50,946 nucleotides of DNA from an uncultured Candidatus Saccharibacteria bacterium (GTDB lineage: Bacteria > Patescibacteriota > Minisyncoccia > Sungbacterales > HO2-52-23). The notes under the pieces were generated by a model, which was not told the DNA's origin, ran no database searches, and was given only the letters and a program-made list of their open reading frames with translations. A program made the translations under genes and the position numbers. This document shows, piece by piece, positions 3,467 to 47,627 of this stretch. Each line of letters opens with the position of its first letter. Position 1 is the first letter of the stretch. The stretch is from positions 21,609-72,554 of the forward strand of contig CAYHON010000001.1 of the NCBI GenBank assembly GCA_964358425.1, given 5' to 3'.

Positions 3467-3471
3467 GTGTT

Positions 3472-5835
3472 CTAAGGACCATAATTAATGTCATTAAGAT
3501 AGTTTAGATCGGGCGCCGGCGGGATAAAAATTCCACCGCCTGAAGCTGGGGGCTGATAAATCGGAGTGGTTTGAGTGGTTGGAGTCGCCGAACCGGTAGA
3601 TCCGGAAGCGGAAGCCGGCTGATCCGGAGTTATATCCAAAGCAATTCCCAAGATATAGGCGATAGTTTCATCCGTTTTCAGGCTGGTATCCAGGGCCGCG
3701 TTGAAATTATCTATATTATTCAGGAGATATTGGCGCAGACTGTTGGGATCTGATTCATCCAAGTTGCCCGTATTTAATTTCTGTTGGAGATCAATGAAAG
3801 TCTGCCGATAGCTTGAGTGAAGGAGGCTGTTCCACCTTTCTATGTCCGTGTATTGATTAACGTTGAGCGTGGGCAGAGAGCGGAAGTTTATGTTGTCCAG
3901 CTGGACTATTTTATTCGCGCTGGTGTTGATATGTTTTTGAAACTCATCCGGTATTTTGCGCAGATTGTTGTCTGTGTTGCCGTAAAGAGTATATTGAGGA
4001 GCGAGCGGGACAGATGACCCGGACAGGACATTGGTAAGCCTGATATCCAAATTGCTTATGCCTAAACCAATCAATGGTTCTTGGATGTTTTCTCCGTTTT
4101 CTAAAATCTGCCAGAGGCGCCCAAGCGCTTCTTTTTTTATCTGGATTAAATCAGCCTTGGTTTTTAAGTGGTCTTTGTAGCTGGCATAGTTTCCGCGGGA
4201 AAGATAAATAGCGGTTGCTATCTGCTCACGGGAAGTGTTGTAGACGTTTTGTGCGACACCCGGATCAAAAACCGTATTTGGTTCAATGTCTACTCCGGAC
4301 GGCGGAGGGGCAATCTCTATCCCCCCGCTGGATATATTCTGGGTGATATTGCCGACGATGGAGGTCAAGATATTTTGTTCCAAATAATCCAAAGCGCCAT
4401 CCGTTTTGGCCAAAAGAGCCAAGATGGGTATATTAATCGGAGGACCTTGGTCGGTGCCTTCAGCCGTGGTGTCTTGGGCGGCTTCCTCATTGCTAGCGGC
4501 GTTGGCCAACCCGTTGCCGGCTTGATTTTCAAGATCAGCTTGTTTATCAAACATACCCCTTCCTTTTCCACTGCTACCCCCAATCAACTTATTGATAGAG
4601 GCCTGTATTACGGAGGAAATAAGGTTATCCATCTCGTTGCCCACGACGGCCACGTCAATACCCGACCCCAAAGATTTATTGAGCAGAAAAGCGGCGGTCT
4701 GGCCCGGGGTTTTGGTTACTCTTTTGGAGGTGCAGGTTACTGGAGGGTCGATCAAGTTGCCATTTTTATCTTTTTCGGCCCCCATCGTTTTTAGTTTATT
4801 GTTAATTGCCTTCTGGATCCGCTGTTCCTGGGCAAAACTAGAGCCTCCAGCCAGCCCGGTATCTTGTATCCCCAGACTTTCCACCACTTGTTTTCTCAAT
4901 CCTCCCACATTTATCGGCTCGCAATTTTTTTCTTCCACCTGAAATCCTAAAAACCCCGCGCCCACCTGATATCCGGTTTGGATGTTTTGGGCGGTGGCCG
5001 TCTCAGCGCTCACTTTGGCGTCCAGCGCTATTAAATAAGCCCCATAGGGATTGTTTTGGGGAGTGAGCGAGTAGCTTACATACGCCGGCCAGCCTCCGCG
5101 GAAATTTCTTTGAAAATCATTGTAAGTATACTTGATGTTGCTGACCACACCCGATGCGGTGCATCCGAGGGCGCGGTTTAGTCCGTAATAAGAATCCCGT
5201 TCCGAGGGCAGCTGCAGGCGCAGTCGGACGAAGTAATTAATATTGCCGCACATATTGATACCCGTAATCTGGTTGATAAACTGTCCGGCCTGCAAATTGA
5301 GCTCCTTGCGCAACTCGTCCCGCAGGTTGCCGACAAAGCCGACGTTGTTGCGTCCGTTGGGATCATACCCTTGAATCCACATGAGAAGACTGTGGTTGAG
5401 CGAGCGGATAAGCATGGTTGAGAGCCGTGTCATAAACGGCTTCATGATGCATTCTTTCATGGAAATTTCATCAAGTTTGCTTACTATAGGCGAATCTTTG
5501 TCCTCTCTGGTGGTTGTTACCTTTTTTCCTCCAAAAAAGCCCTTGAAAAAATTGCTTACTGATTTAATTACCGGTCCAAAAGGAGGAGGTGCGTTTTCAG
5601 CCGCTTTTAAAAGACCAGCTCCAACTTTTTTGAGACCAACCTTTAGATAGTGAGCTCCCAAAGACAATATCTTTCCTCCTATTTTACCCGCGACGCAGGT
5701 ACCGGTGGCTACTGCAAGTATTTTACCCGCATCACCCAAAAGTCCGGCCTTGGTGTCCAGAGGAATGGAAGACAGCATCAGTAAAACACTAACGAGCAGG
5801 AGAGCTGAAACTGATTTTTGTAAGTAGGGAGACAT
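3472..5835 (-). CDS. Large secreted or cell-surface protein of unknown function
   Basis: The ORF-track frame is 3472..5883. I prefer the start at M17 (cat at 5833-5835), which yields a classical signal peptide (MSPYLQKSVSALLLVSVLLMLSS) and removes the overlap with 5843..6841. Confidence 0.6.
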   Translation of the reverse strand: MSPYLQKSVSALLLVSVLLMLSSIPLDTKAGLLGDAGKILAVATGTCVAGKIGGKILSLGAHYLKVGLKKVGAGLLKAAENAPPPFGPVIKSVSNFFKGFFGGKKVTTTREDKDSPIVSKLDEISMKECIMKPFMTRLSTMLIRSLNHSLLMWIQGYDPNGRNNVGFVGNLRDELRKELNLQAGQFINQITGINMCGNINYFVRLRLQLPSERDSYYGLNRALGCTASGVVSNIKYTYNDFQRNFRGGWPAYVSYSLTPQNNPYGAYLIALDAKVSAETATAQNIQTGYQVGAGFLGFQVEEKNCEPINVGGLRKQVVESLGIQDTGLAGGSSFAQEQRIQKAINNKLKTMGAEKDKNGNLIDPPVTCTSKRVTKTPGQTAAFLLNKSLGSGIDVAVVGNEMDNLISSVIQASINKLIGGSSGKGRGMFDKQADLENQAGNGLANAASNEEAAQDTTAEGTDQGPPINIPILALLAKTDGALDYLEQNILTSIVGNITQNISSGGIEIAPPPSGVDIEPNTVFDPGVAQNVYNTSREQIATAIYLSRGNYASYKDHLKTKADLIQIKKEALGRLWQILENGENIQEPLIGLGISNLDIRLTNVLSGSSVPLAPQYTLYGNTDNNLRKIPDEFQKHINTSANKIVQLDNINFRSLPTLNVNQYTDIERWNSLLHSSYRQTFIDLQQKLNTGNLDESDPNSLRQYLLNNIDNFNAALDTSLKTDETIAYILGIALDITPDQPASASGSTGSATPTTQTTPIYQPPASGGGIFIPPAPDLNYLNDINYGP

Positions 5836-5842
5836 AAAAAAT

Positions 5843-6841
5843 TTAGAGCATTTTATTTTCGTAAAGCCAGTTAACCAAATCACCCTCGTTTAGTTTTTGG
5901 GCCTCTACTTTCAAATCTACCCGCAGAGGTATGACAGCCATGGCGGAGGCCGGATCGTTTTCGGCGTTCTCAAACGCCCGCAATTGTTTAGCTGACTCCT
6001 CTGTGAGCCATATTTCTTGGGCATGGAACCAAGCTAAACTTTTAGGGGCGACTAATTCTCGTAAATCCTTAGCCGATTTTTCCGCCGCTTCGCGATACGG
6101 GGTAATTTCTCTTAGGCGCGCGAGGTCGTTGGATTGGATTATTTCCAGAAACAAATCCATATCATCCTCTTCGCCTGTGTTTTGAGAATTTCTAGTGGCT
6201 ATCTCCCCGACTTTTTTCAAATAGTCAAAGATAGCTGTTTTACTTATATCCTCGCTTATTTTTATATCTTTAACTTCTCCGGCAACAAATTGTCCTGCGG
6301 TCTGCGTCGGTGGCTGGATATTTTGTTGGACAAACTCCTCAACTTTTTTAGACACCGCCTCGCTGGCCTTTTTGCGGTCGGCAGATTGTCCTTGAAACAT
6401 CGCGGCTGTACCTCCTTGGCGCAGAAACTCATTGAAAATAAGGTCGGTCAGATTTTTAGTGCTGGAGGGTATGGAGTCGGATTTTCCCACCAGGCTGGCC
6501 GAATCATAGGGACCTTTTACCAAGGGATTCCTCCCGGCTTTTATCTCTTCGCCGTCCTGCGTGCCGTCTCCGTCGGTATCGGGATTTTGCGGATGGGTCC
6601 CGTAAAGCTCTTCTTCCCATGCCTGTAGATTATCGTGATCATCGTCGGTCAATAAAGTATTTTGGGGTGAGGGCACAGCTTGAACCGCTCGGGGAGCCGA
6701 ATCACTTTTTGAAAACCAATTTTTTATAGCCGAAAAATTTAAGAACGCAATCAAAATCACAGCCAATCCAAAACCGGCCCAGAGCATTTGTTTGTTTCCT
6801 GACGCCAGAATATGGCGTGTCGCTTTTTTTATCGCGTCCAC
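5843..6841 (-). CDS. Membrane-anchored protein with a thrombospondin-type-3-like acidic Ca-binding motif
   Basis: It is 332 aa with an N-terminal TM (MLWAGFGLAVILIAFLNF). The motif NPDTDGDGTQDGEE matches the D-x-D-x-D-G-x-x-D pattern. Confidence 0.55.
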   Translation of the reverse strand: MDAIKKATRHILASGNKQMLWAGFGLAVILIAFLNFSAIKNWFSKSDSAPRAVQAVPSPQNTLLTDDDHDNLQAWEEELYGTHPQNPDTDGDGTQDGEEIKAGRNPLVKGPYDSASLVGKSDSIPSSTKNLTDLIFNEFLRQGGTAAMFQGQSADRKKASEAVSKKVEEFVQQNIQPPTQTAGQFVAGEVKDIKISEDISKTAIFDYLKKVGEIATRNSQNTGEEDDMDLFLEIIQSNDLARLREITPYREAAEKSAKDLRELVAPKSLAWFHAQEIWLTEESAKQLRAFENAENDPASAMAVIPLRVDLKVEAQKLNEGDLVNWLYENKML

Positions 6842-31990: not shown

Positions 31991-32794
31991 TTATGGACAG
32001 CAAGCGCTGTCAAGAATCTTCTTGACGTGTCCATGCACGTCATTCCAGACACTTTGTGGACTAAGCAGAAGCGGTCTTATTATGACCACCCGGAAAGGCT
32101 CGAAAGAACCCAGGTATAGGGAATCAATAATTTCCTCGTAAGCCCCGCATATCTTTTTGACAAAGTTGAACCTTTCAGACAATTTTTGACGTCCAGTCAA
32201 TTTCAGGGCGGCGCGCGCAAGACACACTTCAGGTTCCATTATAGAGACGAACATCAGGTCCGGAAAAATCAACTTATCTCCGATAATCTCTTTCTGTATT
32301 TTCCACAGATCTCTCCAGCGCAACGAGCCGGAAGCCGCGCCGAGGGCAAGGATGTGGAAAACAAACTGGTCGCAAATTACCACAGTTCCAGATTGCCGGC
32401 GTTGGGCGATGGAGTCCAGATGGAACAAGTGGTCAAATATAAGGCAATACTGCAAAAGCATGGCCAGATTGTCGTTGTTTCCTCTAAGAAGTTCATTTGC
32501 AAATTTTTCAAAAATCTTAAAATAATCCAACTGGACTGGTTCTAACCCGTCCTTGAGCCCAAGAAGAAAAGAAGACCCCAGAAACATACGAATTGCTAAA
32601 TCTGTTTCTCCTCTGTCACCGGATAAAATCGCTCGCGCTATATTTCCGAAGACGCTACACTCCGTAGGCTCGGTATCAACATCAACTTTGATTACAGCTT
32701 CATGCAAATGATGTTTTAACATCTCTGCTTGTGTGGTTTTCCCCGATCCAGGCGGCCCTTCAAAAGCAATTAGTTTTCCCGGAAGTTTCTCCAC
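31991..32794 (-). CDS. Divergent P-loop nucleotide/nucleoside kinase, thymidylate-kinase-like
   Basis: The N-terminus LIAFEGPPGSGKTTQAEML resembles the Tmk P-loop. The rest of the protein is divergent and longer (267 aa). Confidence 0.4.
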   Translation of the reverse strand: MEKLPGKLIAFEGPPGSGKTTQAEMLKHHLHEAVIKVDVDTEPTECSVFGNIARAILSGDRGETDLAIRMFLGSSFLLGLKDGLEPVQLDYFKIFEKFANELLRGNNDNLAMLLQYCLIFDHLFHLDSIAQRRQSGTVVICDQFVFHILALGAASGSLRWRDLWKIQKEIIGDKLIFPDLMFVSIMEPEVCLARAALKLTGRQKLSERFNFVKKICGAYEEIIDSLYLGSFEPFRVVIIRPLLLSPQSVWNDVHGHVKKILDSACCP

Positions 32795-32860
32795 GGTGTC
32801 TCCTTTCTAAAAACTAATGTAAAACAGCTTTTGTCTATATTACGCCTCGTCTAAAAACAG

Positions 32861-33349
32861 TCAAACCCTTTCCAAAACTACAAAATCGCAGGCGTAAGGA
32901 TTATCTTTGTCGGCCGGAAAATGTTCTTTTTTAATCTCTCCCCATTCCTGCAAATTAAAATCCGGAAAATAAACATCCCCCTCAAAAGCGTGGTCTATGA
33001 AAGTCAGATACATTCTTTGGGCCAGAGGCAGGAATTCTTTAAAAACCCTCTCTCCCCCGATAACCAGCGCCTCCTCGTGTCCGGCGGCCTTCTCCCGCGC
33101 CTCTTCTTTGGAATAAACCACGACGACCCCATCCGGCGCCATAAAACTTTTATTTTGAGTCAAGACGATATTCAGGCGGTTGGGCAGTGGATGGCCGATG
33201 GACTCATAAGTTTTGCGGCCCATAATTACCGCTTTCCCTTCGGTCAGTTTTTTAAAGCGCTTTAAATCCCCCGGCAGGTGCCAGGGCAGACCGTTGTTTT
33301 TGCCTATGACCCGATTGCGGTCTAAGGCGGCGATAAGTGAAATTATCAT
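32861..33349 (-). CDS. folA: Dihydrofolate reductase
   Basis: It contains IAALDRNRVIGKNNGLPWHLPGDLKRFKKLT...VIMGRKTYESIG. Confidence 0.9.
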   Translation of the reverse strand: MIISLIAALDRNRVIGKNNGLPWHLPGDLKRFKKLTEGKAVIMGRKTYESIGHPLPNRLNIVLTQNKSFMAPDGVVVVYSKEEAREKAAGHEEALVIGGERVFKEFLPLAQRMYLTFIDHAFEGDVYFPDFNLQEWGEIKKEHFPADKDNPYACDFVVLERV

Positions 33350-33381
33350 AATATTAAAATTCCACCCTAAAACAGGGTGGA

Positions 33382-34227
33382 TTAAACCGCCATCGGCGCT
33401 TTGATGGCGGGATGATACTGGTAATTTTCCAGACGGATGTCATCCATCAAAAATGAATCTATATCCTTTACCTCCGGATTTAGCCAGAGAGTGGGCAAGG
33501 AATAATGCTCGCGAGTAAGCTGTTCTCGGACTTGGTCAAAATGATTGTGATAAATATGAGCATCGGCCAAGATCAAGATTAGTTCCCCGGGTTTTAATCC
33601 TGCGACTTGAGCAAGCATGCGGGTCAGCAGGGCGTAAGAGGCGATATTGAAAGGAACTCCCAGAAACATATCGCAGGATCGTTGGTACATGCAGAGAGAT
33701 AACATATTATTGGCCACAAAACACTGGAAAAACATATGGCACGGAGGCAGGGCCATCTGGTCCAGTTCTCCCGGGTTCCAGGCGGTCACGATAAGCCGGC
33801 GGTCATTCGGGTCTTTTTTAAGACGCGCTATTAAATCAGCCAGCTGGTCGTGGGGTTTTAAAACAAGATTTTCGCCGTCCAGTATGGGTTTCTGCCATTT
33901 GCGCCATTGCACGCCGTAAACTCTCCCCACATCTCCTTCAAAAGTTGCCTTAGGCTTCCAATAGGGGGCATCGGCATTTTCGTCCCAGATGTGGCAACCC
34001 AAAGCTCGCAGGTCTTTTACGTCCCGACTTCCTTTTATAAACCATAGGAGCTCCGCTTTAACTTGATTAAAAGCAAGACGTTTTGTTGTTACTGCCGGGA
34101 ATAAACCTTGAGTCAAATCAAAACGCAGAGGTTTGACGAAAAGAGCCCGGGAATCAATACCAGTACGATTGGGTCGGTCAACTCCTTTTTCTAAAATTTC
34201 TTTTAGGGTATCCAGGTATTGCCTCAT
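33382..34227 (-). CDS. thyA: Thymidylate synthase ThyA
   Basis: It contains RTG, LPPCH, YQRSCD, GVPFNIASYALL (Asn retained, so dUMP-specific) and DAHIYHNH, with a C-terminal PMAV. Confidence 0.95.
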   Translation of the reverse strand: MRQYLDTLKEILEKGVDRPNRTGIDSRALFVKPLRFDLTQGLFPAVTTKRLAFNQVKAELLWFIKGSRDVKDLRALGCHIWDENADAPYWKPKATFEGDVGRVYGVQWRKWQKPILDGENLVLKPHDQLADLIARLKKDPNDRRLIVTAWNPGELDQMALPPCHMFFQCFVANNMLSLCMYQRSCDMFLGVPFNIASYALLTRMLAQVAGLKPGELILILADAHIYHNHFDQVREQLTREHYSLPTLWLNPEVKDIDSFLMDDIRLENYQYHPAIKAPMAV

Positions 34228-34350
34228 GAAATTGTCCTTTCTAAATATAAATATAACCGCCCCAAGTTTAATCAGTTATGAGATGTAAAATGTCTGCCTG
34301 CCAACATAACAAATTTATGACTGTGTGTCGAACTTTACAACTCTCATTTC

Positions 34351-34947
34351 TTATTGTCCCATTCTAAGTTTTGTTACGGTTTTCCAGACAATTTTTTCTA
34401 TTACCTCAGCCGGCTGGTTGGCGGATATTTCCTGCCAGCCGTATTCTTGGGCCAGCTGCCGATGGATACGGCGGACTTTTTTGGTCAAGTCGTTATCGGC
34501 TTCATGCCGGTGGTTTTTTTCGCTGGCGGATAAAAAACGTTCTCCGTCGAGCAGAAACACGTGGTCTTCCTTGAGCAATCCTTCGTTGAGCCGGACCAAA
34601 AAATCTTTACGGACTCCGGCTCCCGCCCCCCAGGCGATACTGGTGCCCCGATAATCTTCGGCTACGACGGTTATTCCTTGGTTTAATTTTTCCTCCAGCT
34701 CGGGCTGATATTGGTATCGGTTGGCGGCGGCGATTATTTGAAACTCTCTCGGAGTGAGATTGTGCGGATTACCTCCCCGCAGGTATTCATTAAAAATTAT
34801 TCCCGTCGGATGCAGATCATAAATCGGATATTTAAGGTATTCCGCTTTTTTCCCGGCGTCTTTTAAACGTTTAACTAAAGATTTGGCCTGAGTTGTCTTG
34901 CCCACATTGTTGATGCCGTAAAAAACGATAAATTTTCCTCTGGGCAT
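34351..34947 (-). CDS. tmk: Thymidylate kinase
   Basis: It has the P-loop FYGINNVGKTTQ and the motif EDYRGTSIAWG, analogous to DRY..S..AYQ. Confidence 0.7.
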   Translation of the reverse strand: MPRGKFIVFYGINNVGKTTQAKSLVKRLKDAGKKAEYLKYPIYDLHPTGIIFNEYLRGGNPHNLTPREFQIIAAANRYQYQPELEEKLNQGITVVAEDYRGTSIAWGAGAGVRKDFLVRLNEGLLKEDHVFLLDGERFLSASEKNHRHEADNDLTKKVRRIHRQLAQEYGWQEISANQPAEVIEKIVWKTVTKLRMGQ

Positions 34948-34950
34948 AAT

Positions 34951-36078
34951 TTATGAGACCTTAAAATGTTTTGAGAGCCGCGGTGTGGCCGAGTCAAAAG
35001 TATAATTGGAGCCAGACAAAGCATCATAAGGAATTTTGGGAAGTTCAGACATTTTTTCAAATTTAATTTTAGCCGCCGGCTGGCTGTCCCGTAGGACCAA
35101 ATCTTCAAAGGGGCGGATCTCCAAAACCAACTGCCGTCCCCTGCCCTCTCCCTTCTTCCCCCAGCCGTAGCCAGGGTCAATAAAACCGGCATAGTGGGTC
35201 CGGAATTCTCCCGAGCGCGCATCCATCGGTACCATCTCACATGCCAGATGCGGCGGTACCAGCACCCTTTCTTTGGCGTGGAGTATATAAAACCCGCCTC
35301 GTTGCATATTTATTTTACCGCCGACGACCTTCAGGGGGCGGAAAAAATCCAAGGGCGCGTAATGATTGATTTTAGAGAAGTCCAAAATTTTTCTGTCGCC
35401 CAGGCATTCCCAGCCTGCCTGCGCACGCAGGCCGGCTGTGTCTAATCCTTGTTCCAGATCAATAGTTAAAATAAAAGAATTATCCCGATCTTTAATTTTT
35501 ATTTCCACGCTTTTCAGAGAATGTTCGCCCGTCTTATCCCACAGCAGCAAATCTTTTTTTAAAGAATCTTCCAGTTGTTTTTCATCCAACGTCGTGTCCT
35601 TGTTGAAAAACCTTATCTGCGACAGGGTCTCTCCGACAAATATTTTTATAGGAAAAGATTTTGGGGTGATAGCGATCCATACCTGTCCCCGGAATTTAGC
35701 CGGCAGAATATCATAGCGGGAAATACCGTCAGCCAGGATTCTTACCTGCACATCGTTGCGTCCGGTGCTGGATTTGGGATTGCAATGGGCGTAGGTACGG
35801 TAATCAAAACAAAACCTTTCTTTTATACGCGCAAGATAAGTAACATCGCGCTCCAATGGCCGGACGAAATCATGTTTTATAGCTCCCAAATCTTTCAGAG
35901 TGTCTCGTACTATTTCTCCCGGCCGGGGTAAAAAAATACCCTCCACCCGGTAAATTTCCGGCGAGAGGGTCAAGTCTAAAGAACCCGGCTTTACGTTGAC
36001 TAAGCCGGCGCCAGCAATAACGCCTCTTTGCATCATTCTTTTTATTTCCTGCGACGGCAGGGCTCCAAGTTTGACCAT
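34951..36078 (-). CDS. Long-form 2'-deoxycytidine 5'-triphosphate deaminase (DCD family)
   Basis: At 375 aa it contains NPKSSTGRNDV and AGFIDPGYGW, which are dCTP-deaminase/dUTPase-fold motifs. The size fits the roughly 360 aa DCD family. Confidence 0.6.
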   Translation of the reverse strand: MVKLGALPSQEIKRMMQRGVIAGAGLVNVKPGSLDLTLSPEIYRVEGIFLPRPGEIVRDTLKDLGAIKHDFVRPLERDVTYLARIKERFCFDYRTYAHCNPKSSTGRNDVQVRILADGISRYDILPAKFRGQVWIAITPKSFPIKIFVGETLSQIRFFNKDTTLDEKQLEDSLKKDLLLWDKTGEHSLKSVEIKIKDRDNSFILTIDLEQGLDTAGLRAQAGWECLGDRKILDFSKINHYAPLDFFRPLKVVGGKINMQRGGFYILHAKERVLVPPHLACEMVPMDARSGEFRTHYAGFIDPGYGWGKKGEGRGRQLVLEIRPFEDLVLRDSQPAAKIKFEKMSELPKIPYDALSGSNYTFDSATPRLSKHFKVS

Positions 36079-38919: not shown

Positions 38920-42642
<3,723 letters not shown>

Positions 42643-42810: not shown

Positions 42811-43728
42811 ATGTTTCTTAAAGGACCCATTTCTACCTTAATACCCGGCATTTTAAATATTGCCACCGGTAAGCCGTTTGCTTTTGGGATAAACATTTCC
42901 GATAGATGTCCGATAAATTGTGACTGCTATTGGAGAATGGCATCAAGAGTAAACGAAATGGAAGATGAAGAATTGGTAAGGTTTGTTTGGAATAAAAAAC
43001 ATACTAACCATGTTGTTTGTTTTTTGATTGGCGGCGAGCCTTATGTGCGTCCGGGGCTTTTGAAAAAAGTTGCCGGTATTATACCTGTAAACATACTTGT
43101 CACTTCGGGCACTACTCCTCTTTTAAGTTTGCCCCGTACCATTCATTTTATATCGGTAGACGGCAGAGACGCAGAAACTCATGACAGGGTTAGAAAAAGT
43201 AGTGGTCTTTTCCAGAGAATAGTCAAAAATTTATCTAAAGCTCGCCAGCAAAAATTCCCCGCTTATATTCATACAGTTTTAAATGCTGTTAACTATGACC
43301 AAGCTGAAGGCATTCTTGAATATTGGAGTAGGGGGGGGTTGGCCGATGGATTGATATTTAGCACTATAACCCCGAACTCCCACAACCCAACGGCTTTGGA
43401 TTTAAGCGATTCACAAAGAGAAGGAGTCGTAGAAAATTTGCTTGACCTCAAGAAACATTATCCTAGTTTCTTGTGCAATACTCGGCGAATGATTGAACTA
43501 TTCCATCCGAAAGAGACCAAGAAATTCAATCCTGGACGATGCGCCAACGCAAAATATTTTCCCGCTTTTGACGCTGCTGGTAAAAAGATTCCTAAATGTA
43601 TATTTGGGCCGGATGCGGACTGTACTCGTTGTGGTTGTATCGTAACAACTTATGCTGAATCTTTAATGACCCCAAACGGATTCTTGTCTGCGCTTGGTTT
43701 AGGAAACAAATTTTCTTCCGTCAGTTAA
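42811..43728 (+). CDS. Radical-SAM-like enzyme with an atypical Cys spacing and a C-terminal Cys cluster
   Basis: The N-terminal cluster is CPINCDC (C-x3-C-x1-C). GGEPYVRPGL is present. The C-terminus is CIFGPDADCTRCGC. The gene looks more AT-rich than its neighbours by eye. Confidence 0.55.
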   Translation: MFLKGPISTLIPGILNIATGKPFAFGINISDRCPINCDCYWRMASRVNEMEDEELVRFVWNKKHTNHVVCFLIGGEPYVRPGLLKKVAGIIPVNILVTSGTTPLLSLPRTIHFISVDGRDAETHDRVRKSSGLFQRIVKNLSKARQQKFPAYIHTVLNAVNYDQAEGILEYWSRGGLADGLIFSTITPNSHNPTALDLSDSQREGVVENLLDLKKHYPSFLCNTRRMIELFHPKETKKFNPGRCANAKYFPAFDAAGKKIPKCIFGPDADCTRCGCIVTTYAESLMTPNGFLSALGLGNKFSSVS

Positions 43729-43730
43729 CA

Positions 43731-43756
43731 AAAAGAGCCCTCAGCAAGGCTCTTTT
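43731..43756. terminator. Bidirectional terminator between convergent genes
   Basis: The sequence is AAAAGAGCC-CTCAGCAA-GGCTCTTTT. Confidence 0.7.
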
Positions 43757-43760
43757 ATTT

Positions 43761-44897
43761 TTACCGTATCTCAGCCCCAAATCTTTTGGCTGTCTCAATG
43801 ATGATTTTTTCCTGGATAGGCTCAATTTCACGCGTCTCCAGGGTGCGCTCATTGCTGCGATATACGATTCTATAAGTATAGCTCATCTTGTCCGGACCGA
43901 ATTTTTCGGCGTTATCATAGTTATCCAGAAGTTTAACTTCTTCCACCAAACTGCCGCCCAAATCGCGGATGAGGTCAAAATAATCATTGGGCACAAATTC
44001 TTTTTTTACCACAAAAGAAATATCGCGGGTGATTGCAGGGAACCGCGAGACTTCTTTAAATTTGTTGCCCAGGCGCAGCTGCTTTTTTATGCGCTCGTCC
44101 CCAGACCAAAGCAATCTTATATCCGGCAAATCCATGCTGGCGATAGCCAGTCTTTCCAAACCGAAACCAAAAGCCCAGCCGTTGTAGCCCACGAGGCCAA
44201 AATTTTTAAGCACCTCTTTTTTGGGCAGGCCTCCTCCCAGGATTTCAACCCATTCTCCATTTACCATTACCTCAACTTCAAGCGAGGGATCGGTGTAAGG
44301 GAATATGTCTGGGTTAAAGCGGTATTCTACATCGGGTCCGAATACGCTTTTTACAATTTCTGAAAGCACATTTTTAAGGTCATCAAGTACTAAGACACCT
44401 TTGCTGTCCGGGGTAATATACCATCCCCCCATTTGATGGAAGATATTCATATGTCTGCGGTCAATCTCATCTTTTCGGTAGACCTTGCCGTAGCAGAGGG
44501 TTCCGAGCGACTCATTTTTTTCAATGCGTTCTTTTACCTCCGGCAAATTTAGATAATAGTACCAGAAGACGGTGTCGTGGGTGCGGAGTATATTTTCATC
44601 ATCCACATAATATGTATCCGATTTGGAGCGGGCGGGATGATCCGCCGGGAAATTAAAAAGATCAAAACTTACGTGTGCCGGTACAATCTCGGGGATGTTG
44701 ATATCGTCAAAGTCTTTGAAAATAGAGAGAGATTTAACTCTGTTAACCATCTCAAAAAGCGGACTTTCTGGTATGCGCGAAAGATCCGGCATGGCCAAAA
44801 AACGCTTCATCCTTAAGCTCTCTGGGTCGTCTTTTGACTCCAAATCACTTCGCAACTTATCCGCCGTGGGCGACTGAATTGTGATAACTTCTCGCAT
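43761..44897 (-). CDS. Single-chain phenylalanyl-tRNA synthetase of the mitochondrial (FARS2) type: class II catalytic core fused to an FDX-ACB anticodon-binding domain
   Basis: PADHPARSKSDTYY, YRKDEIDRRHMNIFHQ, FPYTDPSLEVEV..NGEWVEILGGG, GWAFGFGLERLAI..DLPDIRLLW and C-terminal FPAITRDISFVV...YRIVYRS.ERTL all parallel human FARS2 segments as I recall them. Confidence 0.8.
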   Translation of the reverse strand: MREVITIQSPTADKLRSDLESKDDPESLRMKRFLAMPDLSRIPESPLFEMVNRVKSLSIFKDFDDINIPEIVPAHVSFDLFNFPADHPARSKSDTYYVDDENILRTHDTVFWYYYLNLPEVKERIEKNESLGTLCYGKVYRKDEIDRRHMNIFHQMGGWYITPDSKGVLVLDDLKNVLSEIVKSVFGPDVEYRFNPDIFPYTDPSLEVEVMVNGEWVEILGGGLPKKEVLKNFGLVGYNGWAFGFGLERLAIASMDLPDIRLLWSGDERIKKQLRLGNKFKEVSRFPAITRDISFVVKKEFVPNDYFDLIRDLGGSLVEEVKLLDNYDNAEKFGPDKMSYTYRIVYRSNERTLETREIEPIQEKIIIETAKRFGAEIR

Positions 44898-45353: not shown

Positions 45354-46847
45354 TTACCTCAAAGATTGATAAATACTCGCACCCTCCTGGATAATCGGAT
45401 TTTTGGCTTCCTCCTTTTTATTTACATTGCCGTAGACGAAACTGCTTTCCAGATATTTTATGATAGCCCGAACATCCTGGATGCGGTTGCGCGAGCCCAG
45501 CACGGTAATTACTATCGGCCGCCAGCCGTATTCGTACAGCCGGACGCCATATATGCCGGCTATGGTCTGCAGGGCATTGCTGGTCCAGCCCGCCTTGCCT
45601 CCGAGAAATCTTTTGTCGTCGCGCGGCCAGTTGACGTTGAGCCAGTAGTACTTGTGTTTTTTATCCAGCGAGACCAGGGAATAATCTTTCTGGGCGGTTA
45701 GTTTGAGCAGGTCCGGGTGTTTGCCGTTGACATAGCGCAGAAGCTTGAAAAGGTCTCCGGCGCTGGAAATATTTTCTTGCGAAAGTCCCGAGGAATCCTG
45801 GTAGTGGGTCTGCTCCATGCCGAGCTCTTTGGCTTTGCCGTTCATTTTTTCTAAAAATTTGGGATCGTGCAGACGGAAAGCGGTCGCCACGTCATTGGCC
45901 GAAGGCAGGATCATGGCGTAAAGCAAATCCAGAACTTTAAACGACTCGCCGGAGGTTATGCCGGAAAGGGTGCCTCCAGCGCTTATCGCCTCCCTATCGA
46001 TAGTCAGCACGTCGTCCAGTTTAAGGCTCTCCATAGCTACGGTGGCGGTCATGAGCTTGGAGACTGATGCTATCGGAAACGAGTCGTTTTTATTTTTTTC
46101 AAAAAGTATCTGGCCGGTTTCCAGATCTTCCGCTAAAACTCCGGCGGCCGATACTTCCGGTACCTGATGCGGTAGATTGCTGCGGCGGAAGAAAGCAAAA
46201 TCGGTAGTGCTGTTGTCCAGAGTGTCGTTGTATACGAGGACGGTCATCCCCTCCTCCGCTTTGGAGAAAAGGTCTTTGGCATCATCGGAGGCTAGGCGCA
46301 CGCCGCCGGCATCGGTCTCATAAAACGGCCGGTCGTTGGCCAAAGTCGGCCAGCCGTGGATAAGATAATTGCCGAAAAGATAAATGCTCCAGGGCAGTTT
46401 GATGCGGTCATCGGTCTTGGACCAATGGCTTTCGGATTTGGACTGGACTTTGTAAAAACCGGAGGGAATATCAAAAAAGCCGTTTTCCTTACCCCGGGCC
46501 AATATCGCGAAATTATTGGTAACCCCGCCCTGCCGGTAGAGAGACAAAGTCATTTTTTCCAGATCTATGAAAATGAAATCTCTTTTTTCCCAGGCCATAG
46601 CCTGCTTTTTTTGCAAAACTTCTTTTTTATCCAAAAGGACAGGCTTGTCTTTGGGCAACTCCGCGTAGACCGGATTATTTTCGTCGGTTTGATAGATGGA
46701 AAAATAGTTGGCAGGCCCGGCCGGCTCGCGCACCCGGAGCATATAAAACTGCCGCATGGCAAAGTAGCCGGAGAAAAAAACAAAATTGGCCGCGACAAAA
46801 AATTTCAGGCCGTACCAAATATGTGTTTTGTTGAAACGGAGATTCAC
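45354..46847 (-). CDS. Membrane-anchored fusion of a YkuD-like (L,D-transpeptidase fold) domain and an S11 D-Ala-D-Ala carboxypeptidase
   Basis: The YkuD-like stretch is YLIHGWP...DAGGVRLASDD. The S11 motifs are SVSK (SxxK), SAND (SxN) and KAGWT (KTG-like). Confidence 0.7.
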   Translation of the reverse strand: MNLRFNKTHIWYGLKFFVAANFVFFSGYFAMRQFYMLRVREPAGPANYFSIYQTDENNPVYAELPKDKPVLLDKKEVLQKKQAMAWEKRDFIFIDLEKMTLSLYRQGGVTNNFAILARGKENGFFDIPSGFYKVQSKSESHWSKTDDRIKLPWSIYLFGNYLIHGWPTLANDRPFYETDAGGVRLASDDAKDLFSKAEEGMTVLVYNDTLDNSTTDFAFFRRSNLPHQVPEVSAAGVLAEDLETGQILFEKNKNDSFPIASVSKLMTATVAMESLKLDDVLTIDREAISAGGTLSGITSGESFKVLDLLYAMILPSANDVATAFRLHDPKFLEKMNGKAKELGMEQTHYQDSSGLSQENISSAGDLFKLLRYVNGKHPDLLKLTAQKDYSLVSLDKKHKYYWLNVNWPRDDKRFLGGKAGWTSNALQTIAGIYGVRLYEYGWRPIVITVLGSRNRIQDVRAIIKYLESSFVYGNVNKKEEAKNPIIQEGASIYQSLR

Positions 46848-47202: not shown

Positions 47203-47298
47203 ATACCTCGACTTCTTTTATATAAAGTAACTTATTTTTAAGATTTTGGCAACCAACCTAATATTTACTTTTATCCTTATTTTGTATATAATCTCCAT

Positions 47299-47627
47299 GC
47301 GGGGTAGAGGAGAAGTACCTCGCAAGGCTCATAGTAGAACTGTGACCCATAATGGCAACATTATGCGGAAAAACTTTCTAAATTGCTGGAAAACCCTTAG
47401 AGCCGGATTAGCCACAGCGTAATCGGAAACTTTAAGCGCGAAGGCTAAAAATAATCCGGATTGGGCAATCAGCAGCGAAGCCTTGGCCAAAGGCCAGGTA
47501 ACGTTCAGAGACTATAATGGAAGGTTCCTGCTTTATCCAAAGTTGGAATATGGTATAGTCCATTCCTCCTATAAATAGGGGGTGTAAAAGAACCTTGAGG
47601 CGCCGGTGCAATTCCGGCCCCCGCAAC
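47299..47627 (+). ncRNA. Unassigned structured RNA of about 330 nt
   Basis: A TATAAT box (47287-47292) lies upstream. The 5' GCGGGG pairs with the 3' CCCCGC. Many hairpins are present, including CAUAAUG-GCAA-CAUUAUG, CCUUGGCC-AAA-GGCCAGG and GCCGG-UGCAAUU-CCGGC. An intrinsic terminator follows at 47634-47664. No plausible CDS is present. Confidence 0.6.

What the first reader, a model, noticed from the sequence alone, without database searches (positions are those of the whole stretch)
43761..44897. Mitochondrial-type (FARS2-like) single-chain PheRS, with no pheT adjacent
Bacterial PheRS is an (alpha-beta)2 enzyme encoded by adjacent pheS-pheT genes. This 378 aa protein instead fuses the class II catalytic core directly to an FDX-ACB anticodon-binding domain. 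It matches human mitochondrial PheRS segment by segment: PADHP.R, YR.D.ID..H...FHQ, FP.T.PS.E.E....GEW.E.LG.G, GWAFG.GLERLAM....IPDIRLFW.EDERF, and FP.I..DISFW....YRI.YR..ERTL. The downstream neighbour is a convergent gene, so there is no beta subunit here. If this is the only PheRS, the organism uses the minimal monomeric architecture otherwise regarded as an organellar speciality. That is relevant to both genome reduction and the origin of FARS2.
Basis: partly seen in the sequence, partly recalled or inferred. Interest (0 to 1): 0.65.

Follow-up and report, generated by a model that had tools for sequence, protein, structure and literature searches.

The report
Single-chain PheRS of groundwater Patescibacteria
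This bacterial gene encodes a one-piece phenylalanine-tRNA ligase built like the human mitochondrial enzyme; thousands of ultra-small "candidate phyla radiation" bacteria carry it, apparently in place of the usual two-subunit enzyme with its proofreading domain.

Summary
Window 43761..44897 (-) is a 378-aa ORF made of a class II PheRS catalytic core (residues 44-273) fused to an FDX-ACB anticodon-binding domain (284-378). Its best solved relative is human mitochondrial PheRS (E 1e-58). A confident AlphaFold model superposes on that enzyme over its full length (TM 0.79).

The window is ordinary Patescibacteria housekeeping DNA from groundwater, not eukaryotic contamination. The gene belongs to a very large, strongly conserved family: more than 7,000 clusters, ~376 aa, 61-88% identical. 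It is found in many Parcubacteria/Paceibacteria lineages, usually beside gyrB, rpsB-tsf or nusG, and NCBI calls it "hypothetical protein".

It falls below the curated cutoffs of pheS_mito, pheS and the paralog family SrmL. In trees it forms its own bacterial clade inside a well-supported superfamily of single-chain enzymes. That superfamily also includes mitochondrial, virus-encoded and SrmL proteins.

Canonical pheS-pheT was found only in Moranbacteria, which do not appear among the monomer carriers. This complementary pattern supports replacement, but I could not scan any whole genome.

The family carries a perfectly coupled active-site swap: the motif-2 Glu/Asp becomes Gly, and the Thr of "HTS" becomes Asp.

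Verdict: a real housekeeping single-chain PheRS without an editing domain, and a new bacterial variant of a known architecture.

The parts
43761..44897 (-). Complete gene for the single-chain PheRS-like ligase (378 aa plus stop codon)
   Evidence: ORF listing. Pfam domains. Exact copies on Hainich groundwater metagenome contigs. More than 7,000 homolog clusters with the same two domains.
44079..44768 (-). Class II PheRS catalytic core, residues 44-273 (Pfam tRNA-synt_2d)
   Evidence: E 3e-52. Coordinates checked by translation. The fold matches PheS cores and the human mtPheRS core.
44424..44489 (-). Class II motif 2, GKVYRKDEIDRRHMNIFHQMGG (residues 137-158). It contains Gly157, where all other PheRS types sampled have Glu or Asp.
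   Evidence: Column frequencies: G in 117 of 118 family members, E/D in every outgroup. Coupling with position 108.
44571..44579 (-). His107-Asp108-Thr109, the counterpart of the 'HTS' amino-acid-binding strand of other PheRS. Asp108 replaces Thr/Met.
   Evidence: D in 117 of 118 family members; T, M, L or I in all outgroups. It co-varies perfectly with Gly157.
44283..44303 (-). FPYTDPS (residues 199-205), the wall of the phenylalanine ring pocket. It contains T202, which aligns with E. coli T251.
   Evidence: F199, P200, Y201 and T202 are present in 118 of 118 members. Other PheRS types have FPF, and SrmL has HPYT.
44145..44180 (-). Class II motif 3, GWAFGFGLERLA (residues 240-251). It contains A242, which aligns with E. 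coli A294.
   Evidence: W241, A242, G244, G246 and R249 are invariant in the family and shared with mitochondrial and canonical PheRS.
43764..44048 (-). FDX-ACB (ferredoxin-fold anticodon-binding) domain, residues 284-378. It is the homolog of domain B8 of the PheT beta subunit.
   Evidence: Pfam E 5e-23. Matches the pheT_bact profile at positions 691-798. Signature residues are shared with Moranbacteria and E. coli PheT B8 and with mitochondrial and viral forms.
43731..43756 (.). Hairpin (9-bp stem, 8-nt loop) flanked by an A-run and a T-run, lying between the convergent stop codons. It is a likely bidirectional intrinsic terminator that ends the PheRS transcript.
   Evidence: Terminator-like scan. 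This is a consensus match only; function is inferred.

Best explanation
The gene encodes the organism's housekeeping phenylalanyl-tRNA synthetase in a single-chain form.

The class II core binds Phe and ATP, makes Phe-AMP and transfers Phe to tRNA-Phe. The fused C-terminal FDX-ACB domain reads the GAA anticodon, a job that domain B8 of the beta subunit does in the classical (alpha-beta)2 enzyme.

By analogy with human mitochondrial PheRS, the enzyme would rest in a closed state and swing the anticodon-binding domain open when tRNA binds. It has no B3/B4 editing domain, so it cannot proofread mischarged tRNA-Phe by itself.

In this lineage, most Parcubacteria/Paceibacteria-type Patescibacteria, it has probably displaced pheS-pheT.

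Shown: the domain architecture, the fold, conservation of motifs 2 and 3 and of the ring pocket, the housekeeping genomic context, the family's size and conservation, and the absence of editing modules from the protein.

Inferred: monomeric state, Phe/tRNA-Phe specificity, the closed-to-open mechanism, and absence of pheS-pheT from the genome.
For: - Architecture and sequence.
- Fold: the AF2 model has pLDDT 93.6 and pTM 0.88. It matches human mtPheRS in the closed form at TM 0.79-0.80 and rmsd ~3 A over ~387 columns. It matches canonical PheS chains only over the core, at TM ~0.53.
- Active site: motif 2, motif 3 and the ring-pocket residues F199, T202, A242 and G244 are invariant. In the family, 114 of 378 columns are at least 98% invariant.
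- Family size: more than 7,000 clusters, ~376 aa, 61-88% identical across many candidate phyla.
- Context: gyrB is nearby in 49 of 82 loci, along with rpsB, tsf and nusG. The radical-SAM neighbour and the 103-aa ORF are not conserved partners.
- No second PheS-like or PheT-like gene in the window or in 82 loci anchored on the monomer.
- Complementary distribution: a canonical adjacent pheS-pheT pair was found in a Moranbacteria MAG. All named proteins among the 120 closest PheT are from Moranbacteria. None of the named monomer carriers is.
- Phylogeny: all single-chain forms separate from 11 canonical PheS in 100% of bootstraps, and the CPR family is monophyletic in 100%.
- The D108/G157 swap co-varies perfectly, as expected of a compensated and selected active site.
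Against: - No complete genome could be scanned, so pheS-pheT elsewhere in this organism is not excluded. Anchored sampling had no power: 1.25 Mb around PNPase contained neither PheT nor the monomer.
- The acidic residue of 'FHQxEG' is Gly here. That residue is conserved in every other PheRS type sampled and, from my memory of the T. thermophilus structures, contacts the amino group of Phe.
- The protein scores below the curated cutoffs of all three PheRS-related NCBIfam models, and PGAP leaves it as 'hypothetical protein'.
- The related family SrmL has the same architecture and shows that such proteins can be accessory paralogs. It occurs in 4-5 Mb Actinomycetota genomes, on plasmids, and in some Patescibacteria MAGs.
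- No tRNA-Phe gene was available to check identity elements.
Confidence: 0.8

Rival explanations
1. The gene is an accessory paralog with a function other than charging tRNA-Phe, as presumed for SrmL. The organism's real PheRS would be a canonical pheS-pheT pair elsewhere in the genome.
For: The best NCBIfam hit is nominally SrmL, at 230.7 bits. SrmL shares the core+FDX-ACB architecture and joins the bacterial clade in 54% of bootstraps. SrmL occurs in large Actinomycetota genomes and on plasmids. Gly157 replaces a conserved acidic residue. The rest of the genome could not be inspected.
Against: The score is below the SrmL cutoff of 300, whereas true SrmL proteins score 402-420. Identity to SrmL is only 28-35%. 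SrmL has changed pocket residues (HPYT, GLALG), while this family keeps the PheRS-type FPYT and GWAFG. The family shows very strong conservation, one copy per locus and a housekeeping context. Canonical PheT turned up only in Moranbacteria.
Confidence: 0.1
2. The gene is a true PheRS but a second, auxiliary one that coexists with the canonical enzyme. It might, for example, be insensitive to an inhibitor or lack editing for use under particular conditions.
For: Duplicate aaRS genes with such roles are known in bacteria (general knowledge). Viruses also carry single-chain PheRS genes as add-ons. Whole-genome absence of pheST is untested.
Against: Genomes of about 0.6-0.9 Mb, to judge from contigs of 621-841 kb and a 721-kb complete chromosome, rarely keep redundant aaRS genes; this is an inference. 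The family spans many candidate phyla with high conservation. The distribution is complementary to that of Moranbacteria PheT.
Confidence: 0.08
3. The contig is eukaryotic or organellar contamination, or the gene was recently transferred from a eukaryote.
For: The best solved-structure match is human FARS2.
Against: Neighbouring genes are bacterial: KsgA, PcrA, PNPase, GatA, a YkuD/PBP fusion, GyrB and bacterial tRNAs. The same gene in similar contexts occurs in hundreds of Patescibacteria MAGs, including a complete chromosome. The family forms a bacterial clade distinct from the eukaryotic sequences, with 90-100% bootstrap support.
Confidence: 0.01

Closest known systems
Mitochondrial PheRS (human FARS2, PDB 3CMQ/3TUP; yeast MSF1; TIGR00469 pheS_mito; 'PheRS-M' in AARS Online, PMC11580382)
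   Same: A single chain made of a class II Phe core plus a C-terminal FDX-ACB domain, with no B1-B7 and no editing domain. About 33% identity. Full-length fold match at TM 0.79. The motif 2, motif 3 and ring-pocket residues are the same. The catalytic cores share one origin relative to canonical PheS, with 100% bootstrap support.
   Different: This protein is bacterial rather than organellar. It is shorter (378 against ~415-450 aa) and lacks the insertion that splits the HMMER match into two stretches. It scores below the family cutoff, 228.7 against 258.35. It forms a separate clade. It has Asp108/Gly157/Tyr201 where mitochondrial enzymes have Thr/Glu/Phe.
SrmL, 'PheS-related mystery ligase' (NCBIfam NF051887)
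   Same: The same two-domain architecture and similar length. It is the top-scoring NCBIfam model and branches near the bacterial single-chain clade.
   Different: This protein scores 230.7 against a cutoff of 300 and against 402-420 for true members. Identity is 28-35%. SrmL has HPYT and GLALGxGL(D/E)R and keeps the motif-2 Asp. This family has FPYT, GWAFGFGLER and Gly. SrmL sits mainly in large Actinomycetota genomes and on plasmids, with no conserved neighbours.
Canonical bacterial (alpha-beta)2 PheRS, pheS-pheT (TIGR00468/TIGR00472; E. coli 3PCO, T. thermophilus 1PYS; Moranbacteria locus L209)
   Same: A homologous catalytic core, about 30-35% identical to PheS. The FDX-ACB domain is homologous to PheT domain B8.
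   Different: This is one gene instead of two. It has no N-terminal coiled coil of PheS, none of the beta-subunit domains B1-B7 and so no B3/B4 editing site. It scores 158.7 on pheS against a cutoff of 237.45.
Virus-encoded single-chain PheRS (~340-370 aa) on jumbo-phage-like and giant-virus-like contigs
   Same: The same architecture, at 33-40% identity.
   Different: These score above the pheS_mito cutoff (260-308 bits) and cluster with eukaryotic organellar sequences rather than with the CPR family. They keep the Thr/Met plus Glu/Asp state. They sit in viral gene contexts.

Membership tests
Single-chain (mitochondrial-type) PheRS, TIGR00469 / PheRS-M | Class II PheRS catalytic core with motifs 2 and 3 | tested here: met
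   Pfam tRNA-synt_2d, E 3e-52. Motifs 2 and 3 are invariant in the family.
Single-chain (mitochondrial-type) PheRS, TIGR00469 / PheRS-M | FDX-ACB anticodon-binding domain fused to the C-terminus of the same chain, with no other beta-subunit domains | tested here: met
   Pfam FDX-ACB at residues 284-378. E. coli PheT matches only through its residues ~696-794.
Single-chain (mitochondrial-type) PheRS, TIGR00469 / PheRS-M | Whole-protein score at or above the curated cutoff of TIGR00469 (258.35 bits) | tested here: not met
   228.7 bits. The 58%-identical sister cluster P0121 passes with 264.3.
Single-chain (mitochondrial-type) PheRS, TIGR00469 / PheRS-M | Full-length three-dimensional likeness to solved mitochondrial PheRS | tested here: met
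   AF2 pLDDT 93.6. Foldseek against 3cmq/5mgh/8p8x gives E ~1e-36, TM 0.79-0.80 and rmsd ~3 A.
Single-chain (mitochondrial-type) PheRS, TIGR00469 / PheRS-M | Branches within the clade of mitochondrial/organellar sequences | tested here: not met
   Bootstrapped NJ on the core: the CPR family plus other bacterial forms make a separate clade (90%). All single-chain forms together are monophyletic (100%). This is a distance method only.
Single-chain (mitochondrial-type) PheRS, TIGR00469 / PheRS-M | Active as a monomer and charges tRNA-Phe with phenylalanine | not testable with these tools
   Requires purified protein, size-exclusion chromatography and an aminoacylation assay.
SrmL (NF051887) | Whole-protein score at or above the curated cutoff (300 bits) | tested here: not met
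   230.7 bits. True members P0261, P0263 and P0270 score 402-420.
SrmL (NF051887) | Family-specific pocket residues HPYT and GLALGxGL(D/E)R, as seen in three true members | tested here: not met
   The window protein has FPYT and GWAFGFGLER.
Canonical bacterial PheS alpha subunit (TIGR00468) | Score at or above the cutoff (237.45 bits), and a partner pheT gene | tested here: not met
   158.7 bits. No pheT in the window or next to the gene in 82 related loci.
Sole PheRS of the organism (displacement of pheS-pheT) | No pheS or pheT anywhere in the same genome | tested here: inconclusive
   None in the 50.9-kb window or in ~1.2 Mb of monomer-anchored loci. Lineage-level complementarity with Moranbacteria PheT. 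Anchored sampling has no power, and no whole genome was readable.

The most novel reading that the evidence does not exclude
The core+FDX-ACB fusion arose once, outside mitochondria. It spread among bacteria and viruses and displaced the (alpha-beta)2 enzyme across most Parcubacteria. On this reading FARS2 is an acquired member of the superfamily rather than an organellar invention, and its nearest sampled non-eukaryotic relatives are virus-encoded enzymes, recalling the phage ancestry of the mitochondrial RNA polymerase and Twinkle helicase. Within the CPR branch, the carboxylate that holds the amino group of Phe has moved from motif 2 (Glu/Asp to Gly157) to the 'HTS' strand (Thr to Asp108). 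That would be a rebuilt substrate site that might tune specificity in an enzyme without proofreading.
Probability: 0.25. Interest if true: 0.8.

Novelty: new variant of a known kind. Interest (0 to 1): 0.6.

Why it matters
PheRS is the textbook heterotetrameric aaRS, and its single-chain form is treated as a mitochondrial speciality.

If most Parcubacteria rely on a single-chain PheRS without editing, four things follow:
1. A large share of bacterial diversity translates Phe codons without the B3/B4 proofreading site, which bears on translational fidelity and on tolerance of tyrosine and meta-tyrosine in ultra-small symbionts.
2. Genome-completeness and phylogenomic marker sets that expect pheS and pheT will systematically miss these lineages, and NCBI's pipeline currently names the gene 'hypothetical protein'.
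3. The origin of FARS2 becomes testable with bacterial and viral outgroups.
4. The coupled Asp108/Gly157 swap is a natural experiment in rebuilding an aaRS amino-acid site.

Tried and rejected
- ORFs 5843..6841 (332 aa) and 3472..5883 (803 aa) looked like an adjacent pheS-pheT pair by size and order. They have no NCBIfam or Pfam match and no tblastn match to E. coli PheS or PheT. Rejected.
- I tried to test genome-wide absence of pheST by sampling relatives around an unrelated anchor, PNPase (80 loci, 1.25 Mb). There were zero PheT and PheS hits but also zero monomer hits, so the approach has no power, and I abandoned it.
- I looked for infC-rpmI-rplT in the loci to inspect the classical pheST position. 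None was present.
- I searched the plasmid collection for a small CPR replicon that could be read end to end. None was found.
- Literature searches found no paper describing this. The queries covered SrmL; monomeric PheRS with Patescibacteria, CPR or Parcubacteria; PheRS-M; FARS2 with Parcubacteria; pheT with Patescibacteria; and the TIGR model numbers (papers read).
- I tested a functional link to the convergent radical-SAM gene and to the upstream 103-aa ORF. Both are singletons among 82 loci. Rejected.
- I looked for a tRNA-Phe gene to check identity elements. None occurs among 239 tRNAs in the sampled loci. ARAGORN's 'tRNA-Phe(aaa)' calls for the intron-split tRNA at 47.3 kb came from wrong junctions; with the correct junction it is tRNA(CAU).
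- I looked for conserved neighbours of SrmL that might hint at its function. There are none.
- I looked for a T-box or other leader RNA upstream of the gene. There is none.
Full report
**1. What is in the sequence**

Window 43761..44897 (minus strand) is an ATG-initiated ORF of 378 aa. Pfam finds the class II phenylalanyl core tRNA-synt_2d at residues 44-273 (E 3e-52). It finds the ferredoxin-fold anticodon-binding domain FDX-ACB at 284-378 (E 5e-23).

Against all PDB sequences, the best matches are six variants of human mitochondrial PheRS (E ~1e-58). Bacterial PheS chains match only the core (E ~1e-33). PheT chains match only their last ~100 residues.

The downstream gene, 42811..43728 (+), is convergent and encodes a radical-SAM/SPASM-like protein. 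A hairpin at 43731-43756 with A- and T-rich flanks lies between the two stop codons. Upstream on the same strand are three features, none of them pheT:
- a 103-aa ORF with no family match;
- a YkuD+Peptidase_S11 fusion;
- tRNA-Asp and tRNA-Met.

No T-box or other leader RNA precedes the gene.

**2. The contig is bacterial**

The window encodes the following:
- KsgA, a PcrA-type helicase, an M23/LysM peptidase and a ComM-like ATPase;
- PNPase, the CCA-adding enzyme, a class I aaRS, TsaD and thymidylate synthase;
- dCTP deaminase, an intein-containing GyrB, GatA and six bacterial tRNAs.

GC content is 41-52%. The identical protein is encoded on contigs from 'Hain_H43' groundwater metagenomes. 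Contamination by eukaryotic or organellar DNA is excluded.

**3. The gene belongs to a very large, conserved family**

A search of 5.8 billion proteins returned more than 7,000 clusters with E below 1e-10. The best 120 are all ~376 aa with the same two domains and are 66-88% identical to the query. Where named, they come from Vogel-, Lipton- and Colwellbacteria, Paceibacterota and 'Patescibacteria group' MAGs. NCBI names them 'hypothetical protein'.

In the one-genome-per-species collection, 308 stretches encode a relative. The best 80 are 61-86% identical. They include Kaiser-, Yanofsky-, Zambryski-, Nomura-, Jorgensen-, Sung-, Taylor- and Doudnabacteria. One is a complete 721-kb chromosome (CP174359.1), and several are contigs of 0.44-0.62 Mb. 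Another member is on an 841-kb contig.

Across 82 loci there is one copy per locus. The recurrent neighbours are gyrB (49 loci), rpsB, tsf and nusG. The radical-SAM gene and the 103-aa ORF of the window are singletons. This is the signature of a housekeeping gene, not of a biosynthetic-cluster ligase.

**4. Fold**

An AlphaFold2 model built with 48 family sequences has mean pLDDT 93.6 and pTM 0.88. Foldseek against the PDB ranks human mitochondrial PheRS first: 5mgh, 3cmq and 8p8x, with E ~1e-36, TM 0.79-0.80, rmsd ~3 A over ~387 columns and 32-33% identity.

The tRNA-bound 'active open state' entry 3tup aligns with a whole-chain TM of only 0.59. The model is therefore in the closed arrangement. 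Canonical PheS chains align only through the core (TM ~0.53).

**5. Which family is it?**

NCBIfam gives three near-misses:

| Model | Score (bits) | Cutoff (bits) |
|---|---|---|
| SrmL, 'PheS-related mystery ligase' | 230.7 | 300 |
| pheS_mito | 228.7 | 258.35 |
| pheS | 158.7 | 237.45 |

An exhaustive search of 1.84 billion cluster representatives found 213 proteins with E of 1e-30 or better. I classified a sample of them:
- **True SrmL** (402-420 bits): P0261, P0263, P0270.
- **Eukaryotic mitochondrial enzymes**: a choanoflagellate, several fungi, a chrysophyte and Vitrella.
- **A group of ~340-370-aa proteins** that pass the pheS_mito cutoff.
- **Bacterial forms**: P0121 (58% identical, passes pheS_mito with 264 bits), P0124 from an Oligoflexia MAG, and P0126 and P0129. 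P0129 lies next to an F-ATPase operon.

I ran a bootstrapped neighbour-joining analysis of the catalytic core (202 columns, 200 replicates, 11 canonical PheS sequences as outgroup). Support values were as follows:

| Grouping | Bootstrap support |
|---|---|
| All single-chain proteins versus canonical PheS | 100% |
| CPR family | 100% |
| CPR family with P0121 | 100% |
| Those plus P0124/P0126/P0129 | 90% |
| Those plus SrmL | 54% |

Eukaryotic and virus-like sequences fall together in the remaining part of the tree. The split separating that virus-like plus eukaryote group from everything else has 42.5% support.

The protein is thus a member of the same fused superfamily as FARS2. It is not nested in the mitochondrial clade, and it is not SrmL. 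SrmL is only 28-35% identical. SrmL also has altered pocket residues, HPYT and GLALGxGL(D/E)R, where this family keeps FPYT and GWAFGFGLER.

SrmL itself occurs mostly in Arthrobacter, Paenarthrobacter, Streptomyces, Pseudonocardia and similar genomes of 4-5 Mb. It also occurs in about 14 low-GC Patescibacteria MAGs. SrmL-like hypothetical proteins are found on plasmids of Glutamicibacter and Azotobacter. It has no conserved neighbours.

**6. Active site**

In an alignment of 118 family members with the outgroups, 114 of 378 columns are at least 98% invariant. Motif 2 (GKVYRKDEIDRRHMNIFHQMGG) and motif 3 (GWAFGFGLERLA) are conserved.

The ring-pocket positions F199, T202, A242 and G244 are invariant. 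T202 aligns with E. coli T251 and A242 with E. coli A294. From memory, these two E. coli residues are the known determinants of Phe-ring specificity.

Three positions depart from every other PheRS type sampled:
- **Position 157** is Gly, where the others have the Glu/Asp of 'FHQxEG'.
- **Position 108** is Asp, where the others have Thr, Met, Leu or Ile in the 'H-T-S' strand.
- **Position 201** is Tyr instead of Phe. Three of the four other bacterial forms (P0121, P0126, P0129) also have Tyr here; P0124 has Phe.

The first two changes are perfectly coupled. Among 118 database members, 117 are Asp/Gly and one (P0118) is Thr/Asp. Among 81 locus-encoded proteins, 80 are Asp/Gly and one is Thr/Asp. 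No Asp/Asp or Thr/Gly intermediate was seen, and all outgroups have a non-acidic residue at 108 and an acidic one at 157.

From memory of the T. thermophilus complexes, the motif-2 Glu (alpha-Glu220) and the Ser of 'HTS' contact the alpha-amino group of Phe. The simplest reading is that the carboxylate has been relocated and the loss compensated. I could not measure the geometry, because no model coordinates are returned.

The FDX-ACB domain keeps the signature shared with PheT B8 domains of Moranbacteria and E. coli and with the mitochondrial and viral forms. This includes FP..RDIS, L.D.Y, RTL...E and the terminal Arg. It also has a short family-specific insertion around 'EKFG'.

**7. Is it the only PheRS?**

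This is the part I could not settle.

tblastn with E. coli PheT and PheS against the window plus 82 monomer-anchored loci (~1.2 Mb) found no second PheS-like gene. It found no PheT B3/4, B5 or B6/7 module. None of the 150 representatives carries an editing module either.

Sampling 80 more Paceibacteria loci around PNPase (1.25 Mb) gave no PheT, but also no monomer. Anchored sampling therefore just resamples syntenic regions and proves nothing.

I obtained a usable seed by searching with a small OB-fold protein that resembles PheT domain B2 (see section 9). That search recovered locus L209 from a 'Moraniibacteriota' MAG. L209 has a textbook adjacent pair following secD-secF-tyrS: pheS (346 aa, 39% identical to E. 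coli) and pheT (795 aa, 34% identical, all domains).

Searching the protein database with that PheT gave 120 full-length five-domain PheT proteins, down to 50% identity. Every named one is annotated 'phenylalanine--tRNA ligase subunit beta'. All are from Moranbacteria/Moraniibacteriota, apart from one 'Minisyncoccota', one 'Patescibacteria group' and one 'bacterium'.

None of the named monomer carriers is Moranbacteria. So within Parcubacteria the two enzyme types show a complementary lineage distribution. That is what displacement predicts, but it is not a per-genome proof.

**8. Mechanism proposed**

Shown: one polypeptide carries a complete class II Phe-type active site and an anticodon-binding domain in the arrangement of human mitochondrial PheRS. 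It lacks the B3/B4 editing domain, the B2 OB fold and the PheS coiled coil.

Inferred by homology: it activates Phe to Phe-AMP. It recognises the GAA anticodon through the FDX-ACB domain. It passes from the closed state (as modelled, like 3CMQ) to an open state (like 3TUP) on tRNA binding, and it transfers Phe to A76. Mischarged products would not be edited in cis.

The gene probably ends its transcript at the hairpin at 43731-43756. It may be co-transcribed with the two upstream genes, since there is no convincing minus-strand promoter directly upstream. The terminator assignment rests on a consensus match and co-transcription is an inference.

**9. Side findings that bear on the story**

In a subclade that includes Doudnabacteria, a ~135-aa gene lies immediately upstream of the monomer on the same strand. 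It is 33-41% identical to E. coli PheT residues ~41-150, the B2/tRNA_bind OB fold. It appears in loci L023, L024, L031, L036, L038 and L169-L173. It may serve as a trans-acting tRNA-binding helper. The window has no such gene.

Three of the ~350-aa single-chain proteins that I traced to contigs lie in virus-like contexts:
- P0151 is on a 160-kb contig, and P0277/P0138 on a 341-kb contig. Both contigs have dense small ORFs and carry PcrJ-unrelated markers listed: PcfJ on both, PhageMetallopep and an SNF2 helicase on the 341-kb contig, and Thy1 and a dCMP deaminase on the 160-kb contig.
- P0142 sits among GIY-YIG, TnpB-like, Kelch, PTH2 and NAD-ligase genes.

A deposited 635-kb 'uncultured phage' genome (LR745206.1) also has a related gene. 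The single-chain architecture thus recurs in compact or mobile genomes: mitochondria, viruses and CPR bacteria.

**10. Novelty and verdict**

The architecture is known from mitochondria. I found no paper in the searchable corpus that describes a bacterial lineage using it. Curated models do not capture the family, and NCBI annotation leaves it unnamed.

I rate it a new bacterial variant of a known kind. It has a distinctive compensated active-site change and real relevance to genome reduction, translational fidelity and the origin of FARS2.

Confidence that it is the organism's working PheRS is about 0.8. The remaining doubt comes from the unscanned remainder of the genome and from the existence of the SrmL paralog family.

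Noticed in passing
window 47298-47627 (+): A tRNA gene with a CAU anticodon (Met/Ile2 type) is interrupted in the anticodon loop by a 258-nt group I intron at 47333-47590. The Rfam Intron_gpI score is 83.3 bits against a threshold of 50. The exons are 47298-47332 and 47591-47627. ARAGORN misses the gene unless the exons are joined.
   Followed up: yes
window 38920-42615 (-): The GyrB gene encodes 1231 aa because it carries an intein (Pfam Intein_splicing recorded for the identical gene). Related loci hold GyrB with other intein insertions, for example L068 with 1135 aa. gyrB is the most frequent neighbour of the PheRS gene (49 of 82 loci).
   Followed up: partly
L023, L024, L031, L036, L038, L169-L173 (for example L031 9577-9987): A standalone ~135-aa OB-fold gene lies directly upstream of the single-chain PheRS gene in a subclade that includes Doudnabacteria. 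It is 33-41% identical to domain B2 (tRNA_bind) of E. coli PheT. It may be a trans-acting tRNA-binding partner. The window has no such gene.
   Followed up: partly
L086 (160-kb contig), L087/L088 (341-kb contig), L330; phage record LR745206.1: Single-chain PheRS genes of ~345-357 aa lie in jumbo-phage-like or giant-virus-like contexts. They pass the pheS_mito cutoff and cluster with eukaryotic organellar enzymes rather than with the CPR family.
   Followed up: partly
L250-L329; plasmids NZ_CP142605.1 and NZ_CP066311.1: The named paralog family SrmL (NF051887) occurs mainly in Actinomycetota such as Arthrobacter, Paenarthrobacter, Streptomyces and Pseudonocardia, and in ~14 low-GC Patescibacteria MAGs. 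SrmL-like hypothetical proteins are on plasmids of Glutamicibacter and Azotobacter. SrmL has no conserved gene neighbourhood, and its ring-pocket residues are altered (HPYT, GLALG).
   Followed up: partly
L209 4838-8271 (+): A Moranbacteria (Moraniibacteriota) MAG has a classical adjacent pheS-pheT pair with all beta-subunit domains, following secD-secF-tyrS. Not all Parcubacteria use the single-chain enzyme.
   Followed up: yes
window 42811-43728 (+): The convergent neighbour is a 305-aa radical-SAM protein with weak SPASM-family matches. Its cysteine motif reads C-P-I-N-C-D-C (CX3CXC) rather than the usual CX3CX2C. It has no counterpart near the PheRS gene in 82 related loci.
   Followed up: partly
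window 45354-46847 (-): One 497-aa protein combines an L,D-transpeptidase (YkuD) domain with a D-Ala-D-Ala carboxypeptidase (Peptidase_S11) domain. This is an unusual fusion of two cell-wall enzymes.
   Followed up: no
window 806-6841 (-) and 21098-25330 (-): Three consecutive large ORFs (886, 803 and 332 aa) have no Pfam or NCBIfam match at all. A 1410-aa ORF has only marginal GvpG and GT2 hits. Such large orphan proteins are typical of CPR genomes.
   Followed up: no
window 31991-36078 (-): A nucleotide-metabolism cluster holds two thymidylate-kinase-like genes (267 and 198 aa) flanking thymidylate synthase, followed by a 375-aa two-domain dCTP deaminase.
   Followed up: no
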